Part shown: one piece after another, positions 117 through 7,101 of the stretch
How the letters are laid out: each line of letters starts with the position of its first letter
How positions within the stretch are numbered: position 1 is the first letter of the stretch
IMG/VR virus record: IMGVR_UViG_648276662_000018
Origin: a virus
Taxonomy: Duplodnaviria; Heunggongvirae; Uroviricota; Caudoviricetes
Strand: one strand, 5' to 3'
Length of the DNA: 7,135 bases
The notes under the pieces: model-generated
The model's database searches: none
Told to the model about the DNA's origin: nothing
The model's input: the letters and a program-made list of their open reading frames with translations, nothing else
Made by a program: the position numbers and the translations under genes

Positions 117-1289
117 TCAGTCCTTATGGTGGAAATAATCACTCAGCCGGGAAAACATGCTGCCTTCCCCGACAGATTCCAGGGTAACCAGCGGCCAGTG
201 CGCCACCTGTTTATCACGGTCGTAAAGTTCAATTTCCCCTACCCGCTGATGGGCGCTAATTGGCGCGGTGAGTTCTTTACCATCAAGGGTATATTTGGCT
301 TTGATATGTGGAATTTCGGCTTTCGGTAGCACCATCCAGAACTCTTGTTCCGTTCCCAGGGCGATATTTTCTTTATCGCCATACCAGATGCGTTCCGTAC
401 CAACCTTTTTCCCACGGTGCAAAATTTGCACCGTAGTAAAGTTTTGTTGACCCCAACGCAGTAATTTTCTTGCCTCTTCCTCACGACCTTTTGCGCTGTC
501 AGCCCCCATTACCACTGCAATGAGACGACGCTGCCCATCTACAGCCGAAGCAATGAGATTAAACCCGGCACCAGAAGTATGACCCGTTTTCAGGCCGTCA
601 ACATTCATGGTTTTATCCCACAATAACCCGTTACGGTTTTGCTGGGTGATACCGTTCCAGGTGAGGCTTTTCTCACTGTACATATGATAAAACTCGGGCT
701 CGCCGTGGATGATAGCGCGAGAAAGCACAGCTAAATCATAAGCCGAGCTATGCTGGCCAGGTGCATCCAGACCATGCACTGTTTCAAAATGCGTATCCTT
801 GAGATGCAGCTTCTCGGCATAGTTGTTCATCATTTCAACAAACTGCCGTTGCCCACCGGCAATATAGTCAGCCAGTGCAACACAAGCGTCATTTCCGGAA
901 TCCACAATTAAACCACGGCTTAAATCACGTACCGATACGCGATCGCCCTCTTTCAAAAACATCAGTGAAGAACCGACAAACACCGGATTATCTTTCGCCC
1001 ACGCATCACGCCCCACGGTGACAATATCGTCTGGCGTAATGCGATGACTATCGATAGCGCGATCCACGACATAGCCCGTCATCAGCTTTGTCAGGCTGGC
1101 GGGATTGCGCTGTTGATGCTCATTACCCGCGGTGAGAATCTGACCGGTGGTGTAATCCATCAATACCCAGGACCCGGCATGAATCTCTGGAGGTTGAGGT
1201 GAAAAAGGAATGTTTTCCGCCGCAAAACCAGACGATAAATTAAAAACGAACAAAGAAGCAGCAATAATAAGACGGCGTTTCAACAGCAA
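117..1289 (-). CDS. dacD: D-alanyl-D-alanine carboxypeptidase, penicillin-binding protein 6b (DacD)
   Basis: 390-aa ORF with N-terminal signal peptide (MLLKRRLIIAASLFVFNLSSGFA) and the three PBP active-site motifs SxxK (SLTK), SxN (SGN) and KTG (KTGHT). Sequence recognised as E. coli DacD. Apparent TTG start at 1287-1289 preceded by GAGGG; stop TGA at 117-119. Confidence 0.93.
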   Translation of the reverse strand: MLLKRRLIIAASLFVFNLSSGFAAENIPFSPQPPEIHAGSWVLMDYTTGQILTAGNEHQQRNPASLTKLMTGYVVDRAIDSHRITPDDIVTVGRDAWAKDNPVFVGSSLMFLKEGDRVSVRDLSRGLIVDSGNDACVALADYIAGGQRQFVEMMNNYAEKLHLKDTHFETVHGLDAPGQHSSAYDLAVLSRAIIHGEPEFYHMYSEKSLTWNGITQQNRNGLLWDKTMNVDGLKTGHTSGAGFNLIASAVDGQRRLIAVVMGADSAKGREEEARKLLRWGQQNFTTVQILHRGKKVGTERIWYGDKENIALGTEQEFWMVLPKAEIPHIKAKYTLDGKELTAPISAHQRVGEIELYDRDKQVAHWPLVTLESVGEGSMFSRLSDYFHHKD

Positions 1290-1491
1290 ACCCTCAGGAG
1301 TTTCAAATAGCTGTTCTTTTTACGGAAATACTTATGAACTGGCTGGAATAAAGTGCAAGAAAATGTGACTACCCTCTCATTTTTATCTGACATGATCTGT
1401 TGCCACTCGCTGCCAAATTGTCGCGCTAAAGCTGATTAGCACGGTGATATTTGATACTCTGGCAGACAGCAGAAACAACGGATTTAACCTA
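1290..1491. promoter_or_regulatory. dacD-sbcB divergent intergenic region (promoters of both genes presumed here; individual elements not resolved)
   Basis: About 200 bp between the divergent dacD start (1289, minus) and the sbcB start (1492, plus), matching the K-12 gene arrangement as recalled. No clean -35/-10 pair could be assigned by eye. Confidence 0.4.
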
Positions 1492-1554
1492 ATGATGAAT
1501 GACGGTAAGCAACAATCTACCTTTTTGTTTCACGATTACGCGAAACACCCCTGA
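1492..1554 (+). pseudogene. sbcB: 5' fragment of sbcB (exonuclease I), truncated by prophage insertion
   Basis: ATGATGAATGACGGTAAGCAACAATCTACCTTTTTGTTTCACGATTAC translates to MMNDGKQQSTFLFHDY, the ExoI N-terminus up to the DEDDh catalytic motif. The frame then reads AKHP and stops at TGA 1552-1554 instead of continuing as ETFGTHPALDRP (ExoI sequence recalled from memory). Confidence 0.7.
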
Positions 1555-1835
1555 GAACCGCCATGAACAAGGGTTTCATGATTTGTGATTTTAGTTTGGT
1601 ACGCAATTTGGTACACAACACAATTTTCACTTCAGCGGGTAGTCATCAAACTCACCATAACGAGCATCGTTAATGATGTATGTAATCACCACAAACATCA
1701 CATCTGGACTAGTTCCGTTTTCATGCGCAGGTATTTGTTCACGCCTCCCTTTCTGCAAATCCTAAAGATGAGATTTTGGGATTTTGGGATATCTTTTATC
1801 CTCAGTTCTCTATCCATTATGCAAACCAGTAATGA

Positions 1836-1854
1836 ACTATCACCGTGTGATAGT
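1836..1854. promoter_or_regulatory. Operator-like palindrome ACTATCAC-CGT-GTGATAGT (8-bp perfect arms, 3-bp centre) in the non-coding prophage arm
   Basis: Arms at 1836-1843 and 1847-1854 are exact reverse complements. The left arm plus centre (TATCACCG) equals the phage lambda cI operator half-site consensus as recalled. The sequence is certain; function is unassigned. Confidence 0.4.
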
Positions 1855-1911
1855 GAGGCATCTGCCACGATAAGCGCAGAGAAATGATGCAGTGATGGGC
1901 GGACTGGCTTG

Positions 1912-1935
1912 ATGAAAAGGTGGCGTAATGCCACC
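1912..1935 (-). terminator. Candidate intrinsic terminator downstream of the tailspike gene
   Basis: On the minus strand: GGUGGC-AUUAC-GCCACC hairpin (1919-1935) followed by UUUU (1915-1918), about 40 nt after the tailspike stop. Short stem and short U-tract, so moderate confidence. Confidence 0.5.
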
Positions 1936-1974
1936 CAAATAGCGGACACTTATACCTATGCCAATATCACAGAC

Positions 1975-4662
1975 CTATTCCACAACATCATCTTCTATCA
2001 ATTCAGCCTTATTTAGTTGTTCCTTAAGCTTATTCCATGCAGAATCCTCAGGCATCTGTACTCGCACAGAAACGAATTGATTAGCAGGAATGTCGATCGG
2101 GTCACCGTTCGAAACACCAGGGATGTCGTTACGTGCAAAAACTGGCGAGTTATCGTGAGTGCGGTGAAACGTTTTCACCAACACAGATCCATCTTGGTTA
2201 ACAACATAATCCAGCCAGATGAGCGGCTGCTTGTTTCGGTCCTGCGGTATTTCAAATCCACCATCAATCCCCCCCCATGAAGCATCTGCATTCAGACCTA
2301 CGCAACCCTCAATCAGATATTCCCCCAATGCCAGCCGTGTGACGGTTACCCCATCTGATTCGCGATTTGTTTCACTACTACCGTCTGAGAAAATCTTCAC
2401 AACCGGAGAGGCTTTTTTGATGAAACCACTTGAATCGACGGTCGTGTTCAGCGACGACCATGCCTCAGCCCAGCCTGTGTTACCTGCGCGAATAGCATCG
2501 TCTGCGTAGCGGAAGAACAGTTTTGATGTTGTGGACATGAATATCTGCAACACACGGTTTTTTGCATATCCTGACTCCCATAATGCTCCGTTACCTGTTC
2601 CTTCTGGCTGCCAGTTTGTCACCCCACCTGCAGCTCCTATACTTACACCAGTAGACCAGTCTCCAGCAAATTCTGGAAGATTTAGTGAGTTAGGTGAGCG
2701 AATTGATACATCAACCAGACCAGGGGATCCGAGAATCGACATGCTGCGGGAGGACACCTTAGTAAAAGAGTTGTACCCGCCGTTTTTGGAAATCCTTCCT
2801 GTATAATTATTAGCCCTGTTAGTTCCATTAACTGTAATTTCCCAGGTATCGCCGTTGATGAAGTCGATCTGCAATAGGCAGAATGCTGGCAGCGTCATCT
2901 GTCCTGGCGCAGATGGCCCACCTTCAAACAGTGGCATATCCTGTTCAAGATATGTCACATATCTACCTGCATCTGTATTCCGCAAATAGTCACAAATAGC
3001 CTGTGCCGATGTAAATAGCGCAATACCATCAGCCGGGTTTACAGGGTGACGGCCAGCGTTAATCACCCTTCCGCGAGGGTTAAATAACTGTGATGAGGCA
3101 TTGGATAGCGGAGTCATGTCTACTGTTCCAGGTTCATTAGATGGACAGTTAGCGCGAATGATGTTTAAAGTCCTATAATTTGATCCGCCCCCATTGTCAT
3201 AGCGAATAGACTGTAGAAGATACAATTCCTCAGAGCCAGAAATATCACAAGACTGCACCCCCTCATTTTCAGTGGAGTAAACACTCTTCCCTGAATAACT
3301 ATCCCAGTATGTTTTGAAATCTGCAGGTGACAGCAGGTACTGACCTAATTCTGAACCATTAAGGCTGTACTCAATATAACCCTGCAACCCTGCGAAAGTA
3401 TTTCCAGATCCCGCCGTGGTAGATGCACCAATACCAGCAAATATCCGTTGAGAACCAAGAGCGACACCCTGCCGTTTTGGTTTACCGGCTCCGCGACCTC
3501 CAACATTTGCATCAACCGTAATAGTCCCCATTGGACTGTAAGATCCTTCTATAAGGCTGTTAATATCCAGTGTGTTAAAGATATTGGATACACCTGTCTC
3601 AACATCAAAAATTTTCGGCCAACCCATATCCGCATTTTCGTATATCAGGGTATTACCAAAGCCACTAAACTGATATCGCACTCCAAGGCGTGTTGATTCA
3701 GTGAAGTTTGTAATCTGCGTTTTATCAACCAGTGTACGCGGATCTTCGATAGGGTAAATTCTGATAGTGCGAGATGGGCTGTACGGCAGCAGGATGTAAC
3801 GCTGTCCTGCCACTCGGTAAACGTGGATGCCTTCTGGTGCACCAACGTTATTCGGAAAATGAAGACGTGTTACCAATGCTCCTGTTACCCAGTCATGCAC
3901 CGTAACCCATACCGATGCGGGGTCTAGCGTCTGCCAGCCGATGTATACCATTCCATCATTGCTGTCTATGTAAATCCCCTGAAATCCCATGGTCGTGTAA
4001 CCATACTGATCTTTAAGATCTGCGGTAATCTCATCGTCTATGATGCTGAATTCTAATTTCCAGTTCAGCGGCCTACGCGTACCACTGACATGCCTGGAAA
4101 TATGAGACAGGTAGCTTTTAACCCCGCCTGCGATAATGTATCTATGTTTGATCTCAGTAACAATTCCAGTTGCAACTGGAGTGCATTTATAGACGCCGCC
4201 GTTTATTCTAATAAAATTGGTTCCTGTTAGATTATCCCCAATGGCAACGTCTTTTCTACTATTCTTAAACGTCCCATTACCTAAGTCAGTAACAAGCAAT
4301 GCCCCTTCTACATATTTCAATGACTGATCAGGGTCATACTTCAGCACATTAGGAAAATAGAACTGCTGTGTACCATACGCATCATAAACAGCCATAGAAT
4401 GGCCTTGCACGGTAACGAATTTGGCAATCTGTCCGTTATATACTGGATACCCTGCGGCATTGATGACGATTGGCTGTGCAACAGGAACGTGAGAGCCGTC
4501 TTCGTTTTCCACATAAACCTGAATCTGGTTTTCTGGATTTACAGGATCAGTGTCAATTTTACCGATATAAATTTTGCCATTGGCTACGGCTTTAAAAGAA
4601 CGCGCCATAGTGAAGAGTTGCGAAGGCATCGATACGATCACATTGGCTGTAATGTCTGTCAT
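1975..4662 (-). CDS. Phage tailspike protein: P22 gp9-type N-terminal head-binding domain fused to a divergent receptor-binding/enzymatic body
   Basis: 895-aa ORF. The first ~115 aa ([11 protein letters not shown]...[26 protein letters not shown]...ENEDGSHV...[13 protein letters not shown]...NVLKYDPDQ) closely match the P22 tailspike head-binding domain as recalled. ATG at 4660-4662 with GGAG 9 nt upstream; stop TAG at 1975-1977. Confidence 0.9.
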
Positions 4663-4862: not shown

Positions 4863-5786
4863 TTAAAGTTTAATTGAGTGGCACGCTCTATCACGTATCG
4901 CTGCGAATGAAGCTATCTCTTTAAGTGCCCAGCTTTGCTCAGCAATTAAATGGCGAAGTGCTTTTAGCTCGGCTCTTACTGCTGAAACGTCATACCCCGC
5001 TTTTGTCAGAATATCGATTAGTTTATACGCCGGACTGCATTCAACGAGTGCGCTGCGGTCAAGAGCAACAGTATCACCGCATTGCTGCCTGATAATGGCG
5101 TAAGGTGCATTTTCAGAAAACCATGAAATCGGGAAGTTAATATCCAGTTTTGGCGCTGGTAACTCTTCTTGCTTGCCAATGAACTCACCTTCAAGCGGAA
5201 CTCGAGCTGCAAGTGACAGTGCTTCGGTAAACTGCTCCTCACTGATTTCTTTATATGAACATCCAAAATGGGATTTCAGTGACGACCACATGGTGATCAT
5301 CGCCTTAGCCTGTTTTTCTTTTGGCAGAGACTGACCGCGACTCATGACGAGTTGTTTAATGGCTTCCTGCTGTTCAGTGGTAATTTTACCCGGCAACGCC
5401 TTTTTAGCTTTGCGTGGGTTAACTACATGACCTTTAGTCCAGTACTCGTAGAGCACATCGTCACACTCTTCCTGATACTGGATTACCTTGTCGCGGATTT
5501 CAGGGCGGACTTTGTTTGGCTGAATGCTTGAAAGCCAAGCCGCAAACTTACGAAAGGCAAGGCATATCATTAACTGTTTACCGCCAGCAGAAGGTATTTC
5601 GATTTCCGAAATACCTTTGACAAATCTCTGTTTTAATTTAACAAATTGAGCAGCCCAAACCATACCCATGCCTTCTACAACGGGTTTCATAGGAACGTAA
5701 GGTTCATTGTTAATGCTGACCAAAAAGAGATTTGTTCCGTGGAATGGAACGTTGATTGTATGTTCTGCAATTGCTACACTCGTCAT
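4863..5786 (-). CDS. ant: Phage antirepressor (Ant-like)
   Basis: 307-aa ORF immediately downstream of arc in the same orientation and upstream of the tailspike, matching P22 immI synteny and the size of P22 Ant (~300 aa). AGGAA about 9 nt upstream of ATG 5784-5786. Assignment rests on synteny and size, not on recalled sequence. Confidence 0.75.
   Translation of the reverse strand: MTSVAIAEHTINVPFHGTNLFLVSINNEPYVPMKPVVEGMGMVWAAQFVKLKQRFVKGISEIEIPSAGGKQLMICLAFRKFAAWLSSIQPNKVRPEIRDKVIQYQEECDDVLYEYWTKGHVVNPRKAKKALPGKITTEQQEAIKQLVMSRGQSLPKEKQAKAMITMWSSLKSHFGCSYKEISEEQFTEALSLAARVPLEGEFIGKQEELPAPKLDINFPISWFSENAPYAIIRQQCGDTVALDRSALVECSPAYKLIDILTKAGYDVSAVRAELKALRHLIAEQSWALKEIASFAAIRDRACHSIKL
5752..5780 (+). 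promoter_or_regulatory. Candidate promoter for a sar-like antisense RNA (within the first codons of ant, opposite strand)
   Basis: Plus strand: TTGATT (5752-5757), 17-bp spacer, TACACT (5775-5780). Predicted start ~5787, directly opposite the ant start codon and ribosome-binding site. Confidence 0.35.
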
Positions 5787-5858
5787 GTCGTTAATTCCTA
5801 TGCGTGGTTTTACGATACCGAAGCCCTGACTGTTCCCGCAGTTGGGGCTTCAACTTTC
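5787..5858 (+). ncRNA. Candidate sar-like small antisense RNA covering the ant ribosome-binding site
   Basis: Predicted ~70-nt plus-strand transcript ending at a 13-bp hairpin (5820-5832 paired with 5839-5851, 6-nt loop) followed by AACUUUCU. The stem contains two G-U wobble pairs that would be C-A mismatches on the minus-strand RNA, so the structure is favoured on the plus strand. P22 is known to make a ~68-nt antisense RNA (sar) at this position. Confidence 0.4.
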
Positions 5859-6053
5859 TGATCTATCAGTTATATCTTTCCCTTCATATACTTCACCTAT
5901 ATTGCTAATGCTGGCAGAACATCCAAGATGCTTGTATCTTATGATGTCCAACACGCAGTCACTACACAGCATCCGACCTGTTTCTTTAGAGTAAATGTAT
6001 GTTTGATCAGCGTCTGATTCGCTAATGCCGCAGAAACAACATTCTTTACTCAT
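5850..6053 (-). CDS. Small Cys-rich protein (putative zinc-ribbon), unknown function, inserted between arc and ant
   Basis: 67-aa ORF with CCxC near the N-terminus and CxxC about 21 residues later. Its ATG overlaps the arc stop as ATGA (6050-6053), indicating translational coupling; GAGGGGG lies ~9 nt upstream. P22 has no gene between arc and ant (as recalled). Confidence 0.6.
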   Translation of the reverse strand: MSKECCFCGISESDADQTYIYSKETGRMLCSDCVLDIIRYKHLGCSASISNIGEVYEGKDITDRSES

Positions 6054-6202
6054 ACCATTACCCCCTCTCTCTTCAAGCTGTCTATCAGGCGCTTGATAAC
6101 CTCTGAGTTAAACGACCTGCACTCTTCCTTTGCCCTGCTACCTATAGCATCCTTTAACGACTGCGGCATCCTTACCAAAATCTTACTTATTTCTTTCTCC
6201 AT
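6050..6202 (-). CDS. arc: Arc-like ribbon-helix-helix transcriptional repressor
   Basis: 50-aa product MEKEISKILVRMPQSLKDAIGSRAKEECRSFNSEVIKRLIDSLKREGVMV aligns with P22 Arc (R-P, GRSxNSE, KKEG pattern). Start set at ATG 6200-6202 with GGAGGG 6 nt upstream; the longer ORF beginning at 6238 has no ribosome-binding site. Confidence 0.85.
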   Translation of the reverse strand: MEKEISKILVRMPQSLKDAIGSRAKEECRSFNSEVIKRLIDSLKREGVMV

Positions 6203-6238
6203 GTTACCCTCCACACAAACAACTCTTTTCGAATACAA

Positions 6239-6267
6239 AAGATAGCAAAGTGAGTATATCTAGTCAA
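6239..6267 (-). promoter_or_regulatory. Candidate Pant-like promoter for the arc operon
   Basis: Minus strand: TTGACT (plus 6262-6267), 17-bp spacer, TATCTT (plus 6239-6244), about 40 nt upstream of the arc start. The -10 overlaps the left arm of the inverted repeat below. Confidence 0.45.
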
Positions 6268-6293
6268 AATTCTTTTGCATACACTTTGCTATC
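6241..6293. promoter_or_regulatory. Pair of 12-bp perfect inverted repeats (GATAGCAAAGTG ... CACTTTGCTATC) in the arc-mnt divergent control region; candidate Arc/Mnt operators
   Basis: Arms at 6241-6252 and 6282-6293 are exact reverse complements separated by 29 bp (centre-to-centre ~41 bp). They lie between the divergently transcribed arc (6202, minus) and mnt (6317, plus). Confidence 0.5.
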
Positions 6294-6316
6294 AAATTGA
6301 ATACCAAAGGTGTGAT

Positions 6317-6565
6317 ATGGCAAAGGGTGTGTCAATTTCTCCAACTACGGTAAGAATCCCTGAATCTTTACGCGAGGCTCTTGCTGTCAGAGCATCAAAA
6401 AATGGTCGCTCTGTTAACTCCGAGATCGTCATGATTTTGCAAGCCGCGATTGATGAAGATAGGTCGCCAAAGTCAGTTGAGTCATTTGCTCAGCAAGAAG
6501 CTGACAAATTCAAAGAGGCGCTGCTTGAGACGCTAAAGACCATGTATGGTAAGGATGAAAAATAA
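6317..6565 (+). CDS. mnt: Mnt-like ribbon-helix-helix repressor (maintenance of lysogeny)
   Basis: 82-aa product MAKGVSISPTTVRIPESLREALAVRASKNGRSVNSEIVMILQAAIDED... aligns with P22 Mnt (RxP, REAL, NGRSxNSE, C-terminal TLKxxYxK). Start ATG 6317-6319 with AAGGTG 4 nt upstream; the upstream in-frame extension from 6275 has no ribosome-binding site. Confidence 0.85.
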   Translation: MAKGVSISPTTVRIPESLREALAVRASKNGRSVNSEIVMILQAAIDEDRSPKSVESFAQQEADKFKEALLETLKTMYGKDEK

Positions 6566-7101
6566 TGCTGCACACAATTCATTTCTTATGCCCCGTTAAC
6601 ACTGCCACTGTTGGGCAACTTCAGAACCACTGTCTCACCGCATTATCTCAAGGCGCAACTGAATTAAATATCCATATATCAAGTCAGGGAGGGGAAACTG
6701 CCGCTGGCTTTACTGCGTATAACTTTCTTAAGTCACTCCCTGTTACCGTTAGAACTCACAACATAAGCAATGTTGAATCCATAGCTAATATCGTTTTCCT
6801 GGCTGGCTCAGAACGTTTCGCAAACCCATTATCAAGATTCCTGTTACATCCTCTATTATGGTGCTTTGCCTCCCCAGCCGCCGACCATGCCAGATTGAGA
6901 GAGTACGGGAAATGCCTCGATAACGATCTTGATCGCTTCGTTGAGACGTTCAATATCGACATCGGAACCCATATTAGGTGGGCATCCCTGATAGCAGACT
7001 CGACCATTTTGGATGCTAACAAGGCTCTTGAGCATGGCATAATTAATTCCATAAAAACTGCAAGGCTGGCATCCAATCAGGCAAACTGGTGGGTTGTTTG
7101 A
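6565..7101 (+). CDS. ClpP-family (peptidase S14-like) serine peptidase homolog, N-terminally truncated relative to ClpP; moron gene co-transcribed with mnt
   Basis: 178-aa ORF whose ATG overlaps the mnt stop (TAATG at 6563-6567), with AAGGAT ~9 nt upstream. By-eye alignment to E. coli ClpP: ISSQGGETAAG vs INSPGGVITAG; THNISNVESIANIVFLAG vs STICMGQAASMGAFLLTAG with the catalytic Ser aligned without gaps; RFANPLSRFLLHP vs RFCLPNSRVMIHQP with the catalytic His conserved; ALEHGIINSI vs AVEYGLVDSI. Confidence 0.8.
   Translation: MLHTIHFLCPVNTATVGQLQNHCLTALSQGATELNIHISSQGGETAAGFTAYNFLKSLPVTVRTHNISNVESIANIVFLAGSERFANPLSRFLLHPLLWCFASPAADHARLREYGKCLDNDLDRFVETFNIDIGTHIRWASLIADSTILDANKALEHGIINSIKTARLASNQANWWVV

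What the first reader, a model, noticed from the sequence alone, without database searches (positions are those of the whole stretch)
5752..5858. Predicted sar-like antisense RNA opposite the ant start
A plus-strand promoter (TTGATT, 17 bp, TACACT) sits inside the first codons of ant, and a 13-bp hairpin with a U-containing tail lies ~70 nt downstream. The hairpin is markedly more stable on the plus-strand RNA because of two G-U wobbles. The resulting RNA would be fully complementary to the ant ribosome-binding site and would overlap the 3' end of the inserted Cys-rich ORF, so it may regulate both.
Basis: partly seen in the sequence, partly recalled or inferred. Interest (0 to 1): 0.55.

Follow-up and report, generated by a model that had tools for sequence, protein, structure and literature searches.

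The report
sar antisense RNA of P22-like prophage
This is an ordinary copy of sar, the long-known small antisense RNA that P22-type phages use to block translation of their antirepressor gene ant; here it sits in an E. coli prophage.

Summary
Window 5788-5855 (+) matches Rfam RF00262 (sar RNA) over the full model at 84.6 bits against a gathering score of 43 (E 2.8e-17).

The stretch lines up, feature for feature, with the promoter, RNA and terminator annotated for sar in the phage P22 reference genome. That places the transcription start at G5787 and the 3' end near 5855-5857.

The surroundings are a typical immI module: mnt, divergent promoters, arc, ant, tailspike. Both hairpins are supported by compensatory base changes across about 70 related loci. 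The G-U pairs make each hairpin more stable on the sar strand than on the ant mRNA strand.

The promoter hexamers alone are not above chance. Their support comes from position, an extended -10 (TGc), and conservation across ant genes whose N-terminal domains are unrelated.

Side observation: the slot between arc and the sar terminator holds interchangeable small ORFs in different phages.

Verdict: already known, low interest.

The parts
5752..5757 (+). Psar -35 hexamer, TTGATT (4 of 6 matches to TTGACA)
   Evidence: Read directly. It aligns with the -35 end of the sar promoter annotated in P22 NC_002371.2. This position varies among relatives: TTGATA, GTGTTC, GTGAAA.
5772..5780 (+). Psar extended -10, TGc + TACACT (4 of 6 matches to TATAAT). 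Relatives mostly have TGcTATACT.
   Evidence: The TTGC + TAnACT block is kept in 13 ant allele types, including ones whose N-terminal domains are unrelated (P22_AR_N against Bro-N).
5787..5857 (+). Predicted sar RNA: +1 at G5787, 3' end at about 5855-5857, 69-71 nt
   Evidence: Rfam RF00262 match at 5788-5855, 84.6 bits, E 2.8e-17, model positions 1-68 of 68. My own covariance model scores 5787-5855 at 86.9 bits. The ends are mapped from the P22 annotation.
5787..5816 (+). Hairpin I: 5'-terminal stem-loop carrying the anti-Shine-Dalgarno sequence UUCCU (5795-5799) in its upper part
   Evidence: Folding. Five of its 7 pairs show changes on both sides across 69 distinct sequences.
5820..5851 (+). 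Hairpin II: the sar terminator stem-loop, 14 pairs including 3 G-U pairs, with loop UCCC
   Evidence: Identical in more than 160 related loci (a consequence of the search pattern). Compensatory variants occur in divergent loci.
5795..5799 (-). ant Shine-Dalgarno sequence AGGAA, 8 nt upstream of the ATG; the target that sar covers
   Evidence: Minus-strand read.
4863..5786 (-). ant, the antirepressor gene (307 aa), target of sar
   Evidence: Pfam P22_AR_N, E 7e-40. PHROG anti-repressor Ant.
5850..6053 (-). Cys-rich 67-aa ORF between arc and the sar terminator. Its stop codon (5850-5852) lies inside hairpin II, and its ATG overlaps the arc stop codon (ATGA).
   Evidence: ORF list. phrog_7150, E 1e-49, function unknown. 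No Pfam hit. hhalign probability of 82% to ClpX-type zinc fingers.
6050..6202 (-). arc, an Arc-family repressor and first gene of the Pant operon
   Evidence: Pfam Arc, E 8.5e-12. RefSeq calls the same 50-aa protein in a 99.5% identical locus.
6239..6267 (-). Candidate Pant promoter: TTGACT, 17 nt, TATCTT with a TG upstream. It lies between 12-nt inverted repeats at 6241-6252 and 6282-6293.
   Evidence: It sits in the same place as Pant/Pmnt in the P22 annotation.
6317..6565 (+). mnt-like Arc/ribbon-helix-helix repressor, divergent from arc
   Evidence: Pfam Arc, E 1.4e-10. RefSeq coordinates in L005.

Best explanation
The stretch encodes sar, the cis-antisense RNA of the immI region of P22-like phages.

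RNA polymerase starts at G5787. The promoter is an extended -10 promoter that lies inside the first 12 codons of ant. Transcription runs away from ant, through the ant 5' untranslated region on the opposite strand, and stops after the GC-rich hairpin at 5820-5851. The product is about 70 nt and has two stem-loops.

This RNA is perfectly complementary to positions -1 to about -70 of the ant mRNA, including the Shine-Dalgarno sequence AGGAA. Pairing with arc-ORF-ant transcripts, whether from Pant or from late-operon read-through, blocks ribosome binding and so holds down antirepressor synthesis.

Shown here: family membership, the anatomy, conservation of the structure, and its bias towards the sar strand.

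Inferred from P22 work and not tested here: that this copy is transcribed, and that it represses Ant.
For: 1. Rfam RF00262 match over the full model, 84.6 bits against a gathering score of 43.
2. Base-by-base colinearity with the sar promoter, RNA and terminator annotated in P22 NC_002371.2, and with the sar annotation in epsilon34.
3. An immI context: mnt-like gene, arc, ant (P22_AR_N), then tailspike.
4. On 69 distinct sar sequences, 97.5% of cells form standard pairs, against 26-45% when the 3' partners are slid by 1-3 columns. Eight pairs change on both sides. None of 500 shuffles reaches any of the five measures.
5. All 22 hairpin-I sequence types fold into the same 5'-terminal stem-loop, and each is more stable in the sar sense than in the mRNA sense. 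Hairpin II gives -21.9 against -16.0 kcal/mol.
6. The TGc + TAnACT block is conserved at a fixed distance from the ant ATG, even where the Ant N-terminal domain belongs to a different Pfam family. This points to selection on the DNA as a promoter.
7. Literature: sar is a 68-69-nt RNA that pairs with the ant ribosome-binding site and blocks Ant synthesis (reviews PMC7968456 and PMC3134472, both citing Liao et al. 1987 and Schaefer & McClure 1997). It was detected by small-RNA sequencing in P22 infection (PMC13397905).
Against: - There are no expression data for this prophage.
- The -10 hexamer here is TACACT rather than the TATACT of most relatives, and the two hexamers together match the consensus at only 8 of 12 positions, below the scan threshold.
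- The terminator tail has only a short U run and is not called by the generic terminator scan.
- The covariation counts come from an alignment fitted to the model.
- Most sequences were retrieved with a pattern that fixed hairpin II. Its near-invariance is therefore partly due to how the sequences were sampled.
Confidence: 0.9

Rival explanations
1. Silent relic. The sequence is a true sar homologue, but in this prophage lineage the promoter has weakened (TATACT to TACACT). Little or no RNA is made, and ant is controlled by Arc and Mnt alone.
For: The -10 hexamer matches the consensus at 4 of 6 positions, against 5 of 6 in most relatives. The site is not called by the promoter scan.
Against: - The same allele (TTGATT, 17 nt, TACACT, with Ant starting MTSVAI) recurs in at least 8 distinct genomic contexts, so it is a maintained lineage rather than a one-off lesion.
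- Its -35 hexamer (4 of 6) is better than that of P22 (2 of 6), and the extended -10 TG is intact.
- Both hairpins are intact.
Confidence: 0.07
2. The conserved hairpin matters mainly as DNA or as a sense-strand element. It could be a recombination 'boundary sequence' joining mosaic modules, or a 3' stabiliser or processing site for arc/ORF mRNA. On this view the antisense RNA is secondary.
For: - The CUS-3 GenBank record labels this stretch 'bsq2; boundary sequence'.
- ant alleles and upstream cargo ORFs reassort freely around an identical 32-nt hairpin.
- The stop codons of all inserted ORFs use the first two bases of the hairpin.
Against: - In divergent relatives the hairpin sequence changes while the pairing is kept (L169, L174, L184, L189, L195). 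That argues for selection on RNA structure.
- The G-U positions favour the sar strand by about 6 kcal/mol.
- Hairpin I and the promoter are conserved as well, which a boundary role does not explain.
- The two roles are not mutually exclusive.
Confidence: 0.05
3. Dual regulator. sar controls both ant and the upstream Cys-rich ORF, for example through RNase III cleavage of the sar-mRNA duplex, which would change the stability of the arc-ORF part of the transcript.
For: sar overlaps the last 6-8 nt of the ORF. Every cargo ORF in this slot ends inside the hairpin.
Against: The overlap is at the 3' end only, about 200 nt from the ORF's start, so its ribosome-binding site cannot be occluded. P22 sar overlaps the stop codon of arc in a comparable way. 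No paper read here makes a reliable case for such an effect; one (PMC12111858) says that sar inhibits arc translation, which disagrees with the other sources read here.
Confidence: 0.1

Closest known systems
sar RNA of Salmonella phage P22 (Rfam RF00262; annotated in NC_002371.2)
   Same: - Same position and orientation, antisense to the ant 5' untranslated region.
- +1 is the G immediately after the complement of the ant ATG.
- Same two-hairpin architecture.
- The terminator hairpin is identical except for one loop base.
- Same extended -10 block.
- Overall 56 of 71 aligned positions are identical.
   Different: - Hairpin I has a different sequence (21 of 33 nt identical) with compensating stem changes.
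- The -10 hexamer is TACACT, not TATACT; the -35 hexamer is TTGATT, not GTGTTA.
- The gene ending at the sar 3' end is a 67-aa Cys-rich ORF rather than arc.
- The host is E. coli.
sar of Salmonella phage epsilon34 (EU570103, annotated by similarity to P22)
   Same: Same module and RNA. It is an example of the family being recognised and annotated by homology alone (PMC2629481).
   Different: epsilon34 has the P22-type hairpin I, and arc lies directly upstream.
The same locus in published E. coli phages and prophages (CUS-3/UM146, phiv205-1, EC.P3, vB_EcoP-611R6, O157:H7 EDL933)
   Same: These carry sar at Rfam scores of 66.7-87.7 bits. They also have an extra small ORF between arc and sar. The window's type of hairpin I and the Cys-rich ORF are both present in CUS-3/UM146.
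   Different: None of these records annotates the RNA. CUS-3 calls the stretch a boundary sequence. RefSeq leaves the gap of about 263 nt between ant and arc empty.
Lambda OOP RNA (antisense to cII) and IS10 RNA-OUT
   Same: Both are short cis-encoded antisense RNAs ending in a stable terminator hairpin that repress an overlapping gene after transcription (PMC3134472, PMC5415839).
   Different: They are unrelated in sequence. OOP overlaps the 3' end of its target and acts through RNase III. According to the literature, sar covers the ribosome-binding site.

Membership tests
sar RNA (Rfam RF00262) | Scores at or above the family's curated gathering score, over the full model | tested here: met
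   84.6 bits against 43, E 2.8e-17, model positions 1-68 of 68, at window 5788-5855 on the plus strand.
sar RNA (Rfam RF00262) | Encoded antisense to the ant leader and ribosome-binding site, inside an immI module (mnt / arc / ant) | tested here: met
   The ant ATG is at 5786-5784 and the Shine-Dalgarno sequence AGGAA at 5799-5795, both on the minus strand. Pfam identifies Arc, Arc/RHH and P22_AR_N proteins.
sar RNA (Rfam RF00262) | Two stem-loops: a 5' hairpin carrying the anti-Shine-Dalgarno sequence and a 3' GC-rich terminator hairpin, with pairing conserved among homologues | tested here: met
   Minimum-free-energy fold. 97.5% of cells are paired, 8 pairs change on both sides, and 0 of 500 shuffles reach the observed values. 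Caveat: the alignment was fitted to the model.
sar RNA (Rfam RF00262) | Promoter inside the first ant codons, at the position of P22 Psar | tested here: met
   Colinear with the sar promoter annotated in NC_002371.2. The extended -10 TGc is conserved. The hexamers are weaker than consensus (8 of 12).
sar RNA (Rfam RF00262) | A transcript of about 68-70 nt is actually made | not testable with these tools
   No expression data are available for this window.
sar RNA (Rfam RF00262) | Represses Ant synthesis by pairing with ant mRNA | not testable with these tools
   Complementarity is complete by construction. The function is inferred from P22 genetics and biochemistry (PMC7968456, citing Liao 1987 and Schaefer & McClure 1997).
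ClpX C4-type zinc finger (Pfam PF06689), for the Cys-rich ORF 5850-6053 | Matches the Pfam model at or above its gathering score | tested here: not met
   No PF06689 hit even at E <= 10. A different ORF occupying the same slot in locus L097 does match, at 43 bits against 27.
ClpX C4-type zinc finger (Pfam PF06689), for the Cys-rich ORF 5850-6053 | Remote homology or a shared fold (CxxC ... CxxC treble clef followed by a helix) | tested here: inconclusive
   hhalign gives 82% probability over 31 columns, from very shallow profiles. The AlphaFold model has a mean pLDDT of only 57, so no fold search was run.

The most novel reading that the evidence does not exclude
The sar terminator hairpin may be more than the end of an antisense RNA. 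It could serve as a fixed docking junction for a family of interchangeable small accessory genes inserted between arc and ant.

At least eight kinds of such genes were seen. Several are CxxC...CxxC proteins, and one is a true ClpX-type zinc finger. Each ends with a TGA stop codon that uses the first two bases of the hairpin.

On this reading, sar pairing, and perhaps cleavage of the resulting duplex, would uncouple expression of arc and the cargo gene from expression of ant. The Cys-rich protein of this window would be a mimic of the ClpX N-terminal domain, acting on host or phage proteolysis, possibly together with the ClpP-like gene fused to the mnt operon.
Probability: 0.1. Interest if true: 0.5.

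Novelty: already known. Interest (0 to 1): 0.12.

Why it matters
The finding matters little as a discovery. sar has been known since 1987, it has an Rfam family, and this copy is recognised at roughly twice the gathering score.

It has practical value. Neither the RNA nor the 67-aa ORF is annotated in the RefSeq and GenBank records of the same locus that I examined (three E. coli genomes and four phage genomes). Of 5426 complete E. coli genomes, 771 hold some part of the 601-base stretch around it, which runs from the ant start to the arc promoter. Annotating sar would fill that gap.

The comparison also gives clean covariation support for both sar hairpins. It shows that the first five Ant residues are constrained by the promoter embedded in them.

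Tried and rejected
- A plain MAFFT alignment of hairpin I variants put the 3' arms out of register. I replaced it with an alignment made by a covariance model.
- The promoter and terminator consensus scans call neither Psar nor the sar terminator. I treat this as a limit of the scans, because the P22 elements have the same weak features.
- The primary papers (Liao 1987; Schaefer & McClure 1997) are not held in the library. The mechanism is therefore cited through reviews. From my memory of Liao 1987, Psar is activated by convergent Pant transcription; I could not verify this and do not rely on it.
- Cys-rich ORF, searches that gave nothing usable:
  - Pfam and NCBIfam give no hit.
  - PDB sequence hits are weak RING-finger matches to RNF4, which I regard as cysteine-spacing noise.
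  - BLASTP against E. coli ClpX residues 1-81 aligns only 11 residues.
  - The word-indexed protein search found only 5 near-identical clusters.
  - The exhaustive phmmer search returned mostly long repeat proteins.
  - The single-sequence AlphaFold model is of low confidence, with pLDDT 57, so no fold search was run.
- The ratio of synonymous to non-synonymous changes in the ORF is uninformative: only 6 sites vary among 7 alleles.
- No tRNA gene and no other Rfam family is present in the window.

Full report
**What the window is.** The 7135-base window is the right end of a P22-like (Lederbergvirus-type) prophage in E. coli.
- The genes are: host dacD at 117-1289 on the minus strand (NCBIfam equivalog, 848 bits); a tailspike with a P22-type head-binding N-terminus at 1975-4662 (-); ant at 4863-5786 (-); a 67-aa Cys-rich ORF at 5850-6053 (-); arc at 6050-6202 (-); an mnt-like gene at 6317-6565 (+); and a ClpP-like gene at 6565-7101 (+).
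- A 601-base stretch of this region (5700-6300) is 99.5% identical to a stretch of an E. coli chromosome.
- Part of that stretch is present in 771 of 5426 complete E. coli genomes, and 276 genomes cover at least 80% of it.

**Checking the observation.**
- TTGATT lies at 5752-5757 and TACACT at 5775-5780, with a 17-nt spacer. All of this is inside ant codons 3-12.
- The inverted repeat at 5820-5832 and 5839-5851 has 13-nt arms with two DNA mismatches.
- On the plus-strand RNA those mismatches become U-G and G-U pairs, and a further U-G closes the loop, giving 14 pairs at -21.9 kcal/mol (z -5.8).
- The minus-strand RNA reaches only -16.0 kcal/mol, with an internal loop.
- The complete 76-nt stretch folds at -29.8 kcal/mol on the plus strand (z -4.7, 0 of 200 shuffles as good) against -20.2 on the minus strand.
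- Taken alone, the promoter hexamers are not above chance. They match the consensus at 8 of 12 positions, and the scan expects about 2.3 sites reaching 9 of 12 in this 1.3 kb.

**What it is.** The stretch is sar.
- Rfam family RF00262 (sar RNA) matches 5788-5855 on the plus strand over the full model, at 84.6 bits against a gathering score of 43, E 2.8e-17. It is the only Rfam hit in the window.
- The P22 reference genome annotates a sar promoter, a sar RNA and a sar terminator. The window aligns colinearly with all three.
- From that alignment, +1 is the G immediately after the complement of the ant ATG, which is G5787 here. The 3' end falls in AACUUU after the hairpin, at about 5855-5857.
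- Phage epsilon34 carries the same annotation, made by similarity to P22 (PMC2629481).
- Compared with P22, the terminator hairpin differs at one loop base. Hairpin I is only 21 of 33 nt identical.

**Conservation and covariation.**
- A scan of viral contigs for the hairpin II sequence (two loop bases left free), together with loci fetched earlier, gave 167 occurrences. A second scan anchored on the promoter and ant start retrieved loci whatever their hairpin II sequence.
- Hairpin I occurs in 29 distinct sequences. All 22 types tested fold as a 5'-terminal stem-loop, and each is more stable in the sar sense than in the mRNA sense.
- Among the loci found through the promoter anchor, 131 of 161 carry the canonical hairpin II. 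About 15 of the rest keep a hairpin with altered, partly compensated, stems; examples are L169, L174, L184, L189 and L195. A few of the other non-canonical matches show no sar-like sequence and look like chance hits of the anchor pattern.
- I built a covariance model from six sequences. It found 70 sar copies in 73 sources.
- On that alignment 97.5% of cells form standard pairs, against 26-45% when the 3' partners are slid by 1-3 columns. Eight pairs change on both sides, five of them among the seven pairs of hairpin I. None of 500 shuffles reaches any of the five measures.
- Two caveats apply. The alignment is fitted to the model, and most sequences were retrieved with hairpin II fixed.

**The promoter.**
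- Across 17 distinct promoter and ant-start combinations, covering 13 Ant N-terminal types, the block TTGC (rarely TTGA) followed by TAnACT sits at a fixed distance from the ant ATG. The window has TACACT; rare variants are TAAGCT and TACAAT. This is an extended -10 promoter (TGn).
- The -35 hexamer varies: TTGATT here, TTGATA in CUS-3/UM146, GTGTTC or GTGTTA in P22-type alleles.
- The block is kept even where the Ant N-terminal domain belongs to a different Pfam family, P22_AR_N against Bro-N. All these Ant proteins therefore begin M-x-S-[I/V/L]-[A/S].
- That pattern is what selection on an embedded promoter would produce, and it supports Psar better than the hexamer scores do.

**How it most likely works (inferred from P22, not tested here).**
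- sar is transcribed convergently with Pant.
- It is fully complementary to the ant leader, including the Shine-Dalgarno sequence AGGAA at 5799-5795.
- By pairing with that leader it blocks translation of the antirepressor (PMC7968456; PMC3134472; PMC13397905 for detection of sar by small-RNA sequencing).
- Because arc and ant are also read from the late promoter (PMC12111858), sar supplies control where Arc and Mnt cannot act.

- The ORF's ATG overlaps the arc stop codon (ATGA at 6050-6053). Its own TGA (5852-5850) uses the first two bases of hairpin II.
- sar therefore overlaps the ORF by only 6-8 nt at its 3' end. P22 sar overlaps the arc stop codon in a comparable way, by 2 nt.
- Direct control of the ORF's translation is thus unlikely. 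An indirect effect through mRNA cleavage or stability cannot be excluded.

**Noticed along the way.**
- The slot between arc and the sar terminator holds different cargo in different phages:
  - nothing (P22, epsilon34);
  - this 67-aa ORF;
  - a 63-aa homologue;
  - a 60-aa true ClpX C4 zinc finger (PF06689, 43 bits);
  - a 74-aa CxxC protein;
  - 73-aa and 80-aa proteins with weak FlbD similarity;
  - an 89-aa protein with a hydrophobic N-terminal segment (possibly membrane-spanning; not tested);
  - the phiv205-1 ORF.
- ant alleles and cargo types reassort freely around the hairpin. The CUS-3 record calls the stretch a 'boundary sequence'.
- The window's ORF resembles ClpX-type zinc fingers only weakly: hhalign gives 82% probability, Pfam gives no hit, and the AlphaFold model has pLDDT 57.
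- RefSeq and GenBank records of the same locus annotate neither the RNA nor the ORF.

**Verdict.** The element is already known, so interest is low.

Noticed in passing
window 5850-6053 (-); loci L072, L088, L097, L003, L086, L108, L002: The slot between arc and the sar terminator holds interchangeable small ORFs in different P22-like phages, at least eight kinds. Every inserted ORF ends with a TGA whose last two bases are the first two bases of the terminator hairpin. ant alleles and cargo types reassort freely around the hairpin.
   Followed up: partly
window 5850-6053 (-): The 67-aa ORF has a C-C-F-C-G ... L-C-x-x-C-V pattern that resembles the ClpX N-terminal C4 zinc finger. Another occupant of the same slot (L097, 60 aa) is a true PF06689 member at 43 bits. 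For the window's ORF the link is only suggestive: hhalign 82%, no Pfam hit, AlphaFold pLDDT 57.
   Followed up: partly
window 6565-7101 (+): A 178-aa ClpP-like / head-maturation-protease-like gene starts at the last base of the mnt-like gene's stop codon. It would therefore be co-transcribed with the lysogeny repressor gene. This is unusual for immI and intriguing given the ClpX-like ORF nearby.
   Followed up: no
L005 8975-9044 (+), about 2.9 kb beyond the window-homologous sar in E. coli 20AR0300: There is a second, divergent sar-like RNA. It has a TGc + TACAAT promoter, the same hairpin I plan, a hairpin II with a different upper stem, and a better U tail. It lies antisense to the start of a second ant-like gene (P22AR_C domain), next to a LexA-family repressor. 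My model scores it at 46 bits, but it is below the Rfam gathering score.
   Followed up: partly
L169, L174, L186, L188, L189, L190, L195: More distant sar-like RNAs with compensated changes in hairpin II. Four of them are found by my covariance model: L188 at 39, L189 at 34, L169 at 30 and L186 at 28 bits. The other three were seen only by eye in the promoter-anchored scan. The four that were scanned with Rfam (L169, L174, L188, L189) and L195 do not reach its gathering score, so the Rfam family under-reports the clade.
   Followed up: partly
L005 6088-6350, L007 2051-2313, L006 2017-2318: RefSeq (PGAP) leaves the 263-302-nt stretch between ant and arc without any feature. Neither sar nor the 67-aa ORF is annotated. 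In O157:H7 EDL933 the ORF looks truncated by a one-base insertion, leaving 40 aa.
   Followed up: partly
window 5772-5786 (ant codons 1-5): All Ant variants begin M-x-S-[I/V/L]-[A/S], whatever their N-terminal domain family, because these codons encode the extended -10 of Psar on the other strand. This is a protein N-terminus constrained by an embedded promoter.
   Followed up: yes
window 4863-5786 (-): The window's Ant matches P22_AR_N but not the P22_AR_C domain found in the P22, epsilon34, UM146 and EDL933 Ant proteins. Its C-terminal part matches only PHROG anti-repressor families.
   Followed up: no
window 6233-6293: Two nested inverted repeats (6241-6252 with 6282-6293, perfect 12-mers; 6233-6242 with 6271-6280) bracket the candidate Pant promoter. 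They are likely the Arc and Mnt operators.
   Followed up: no
window 117-1975; L005 1-2900: Here the prophage end lies next to dacD. In the genome with a 99.5% identical immI region, it lies next to ybhB-bioA and carries a different tailspike. This points to mosaic prophages at different integration sites.
   Followed up: no
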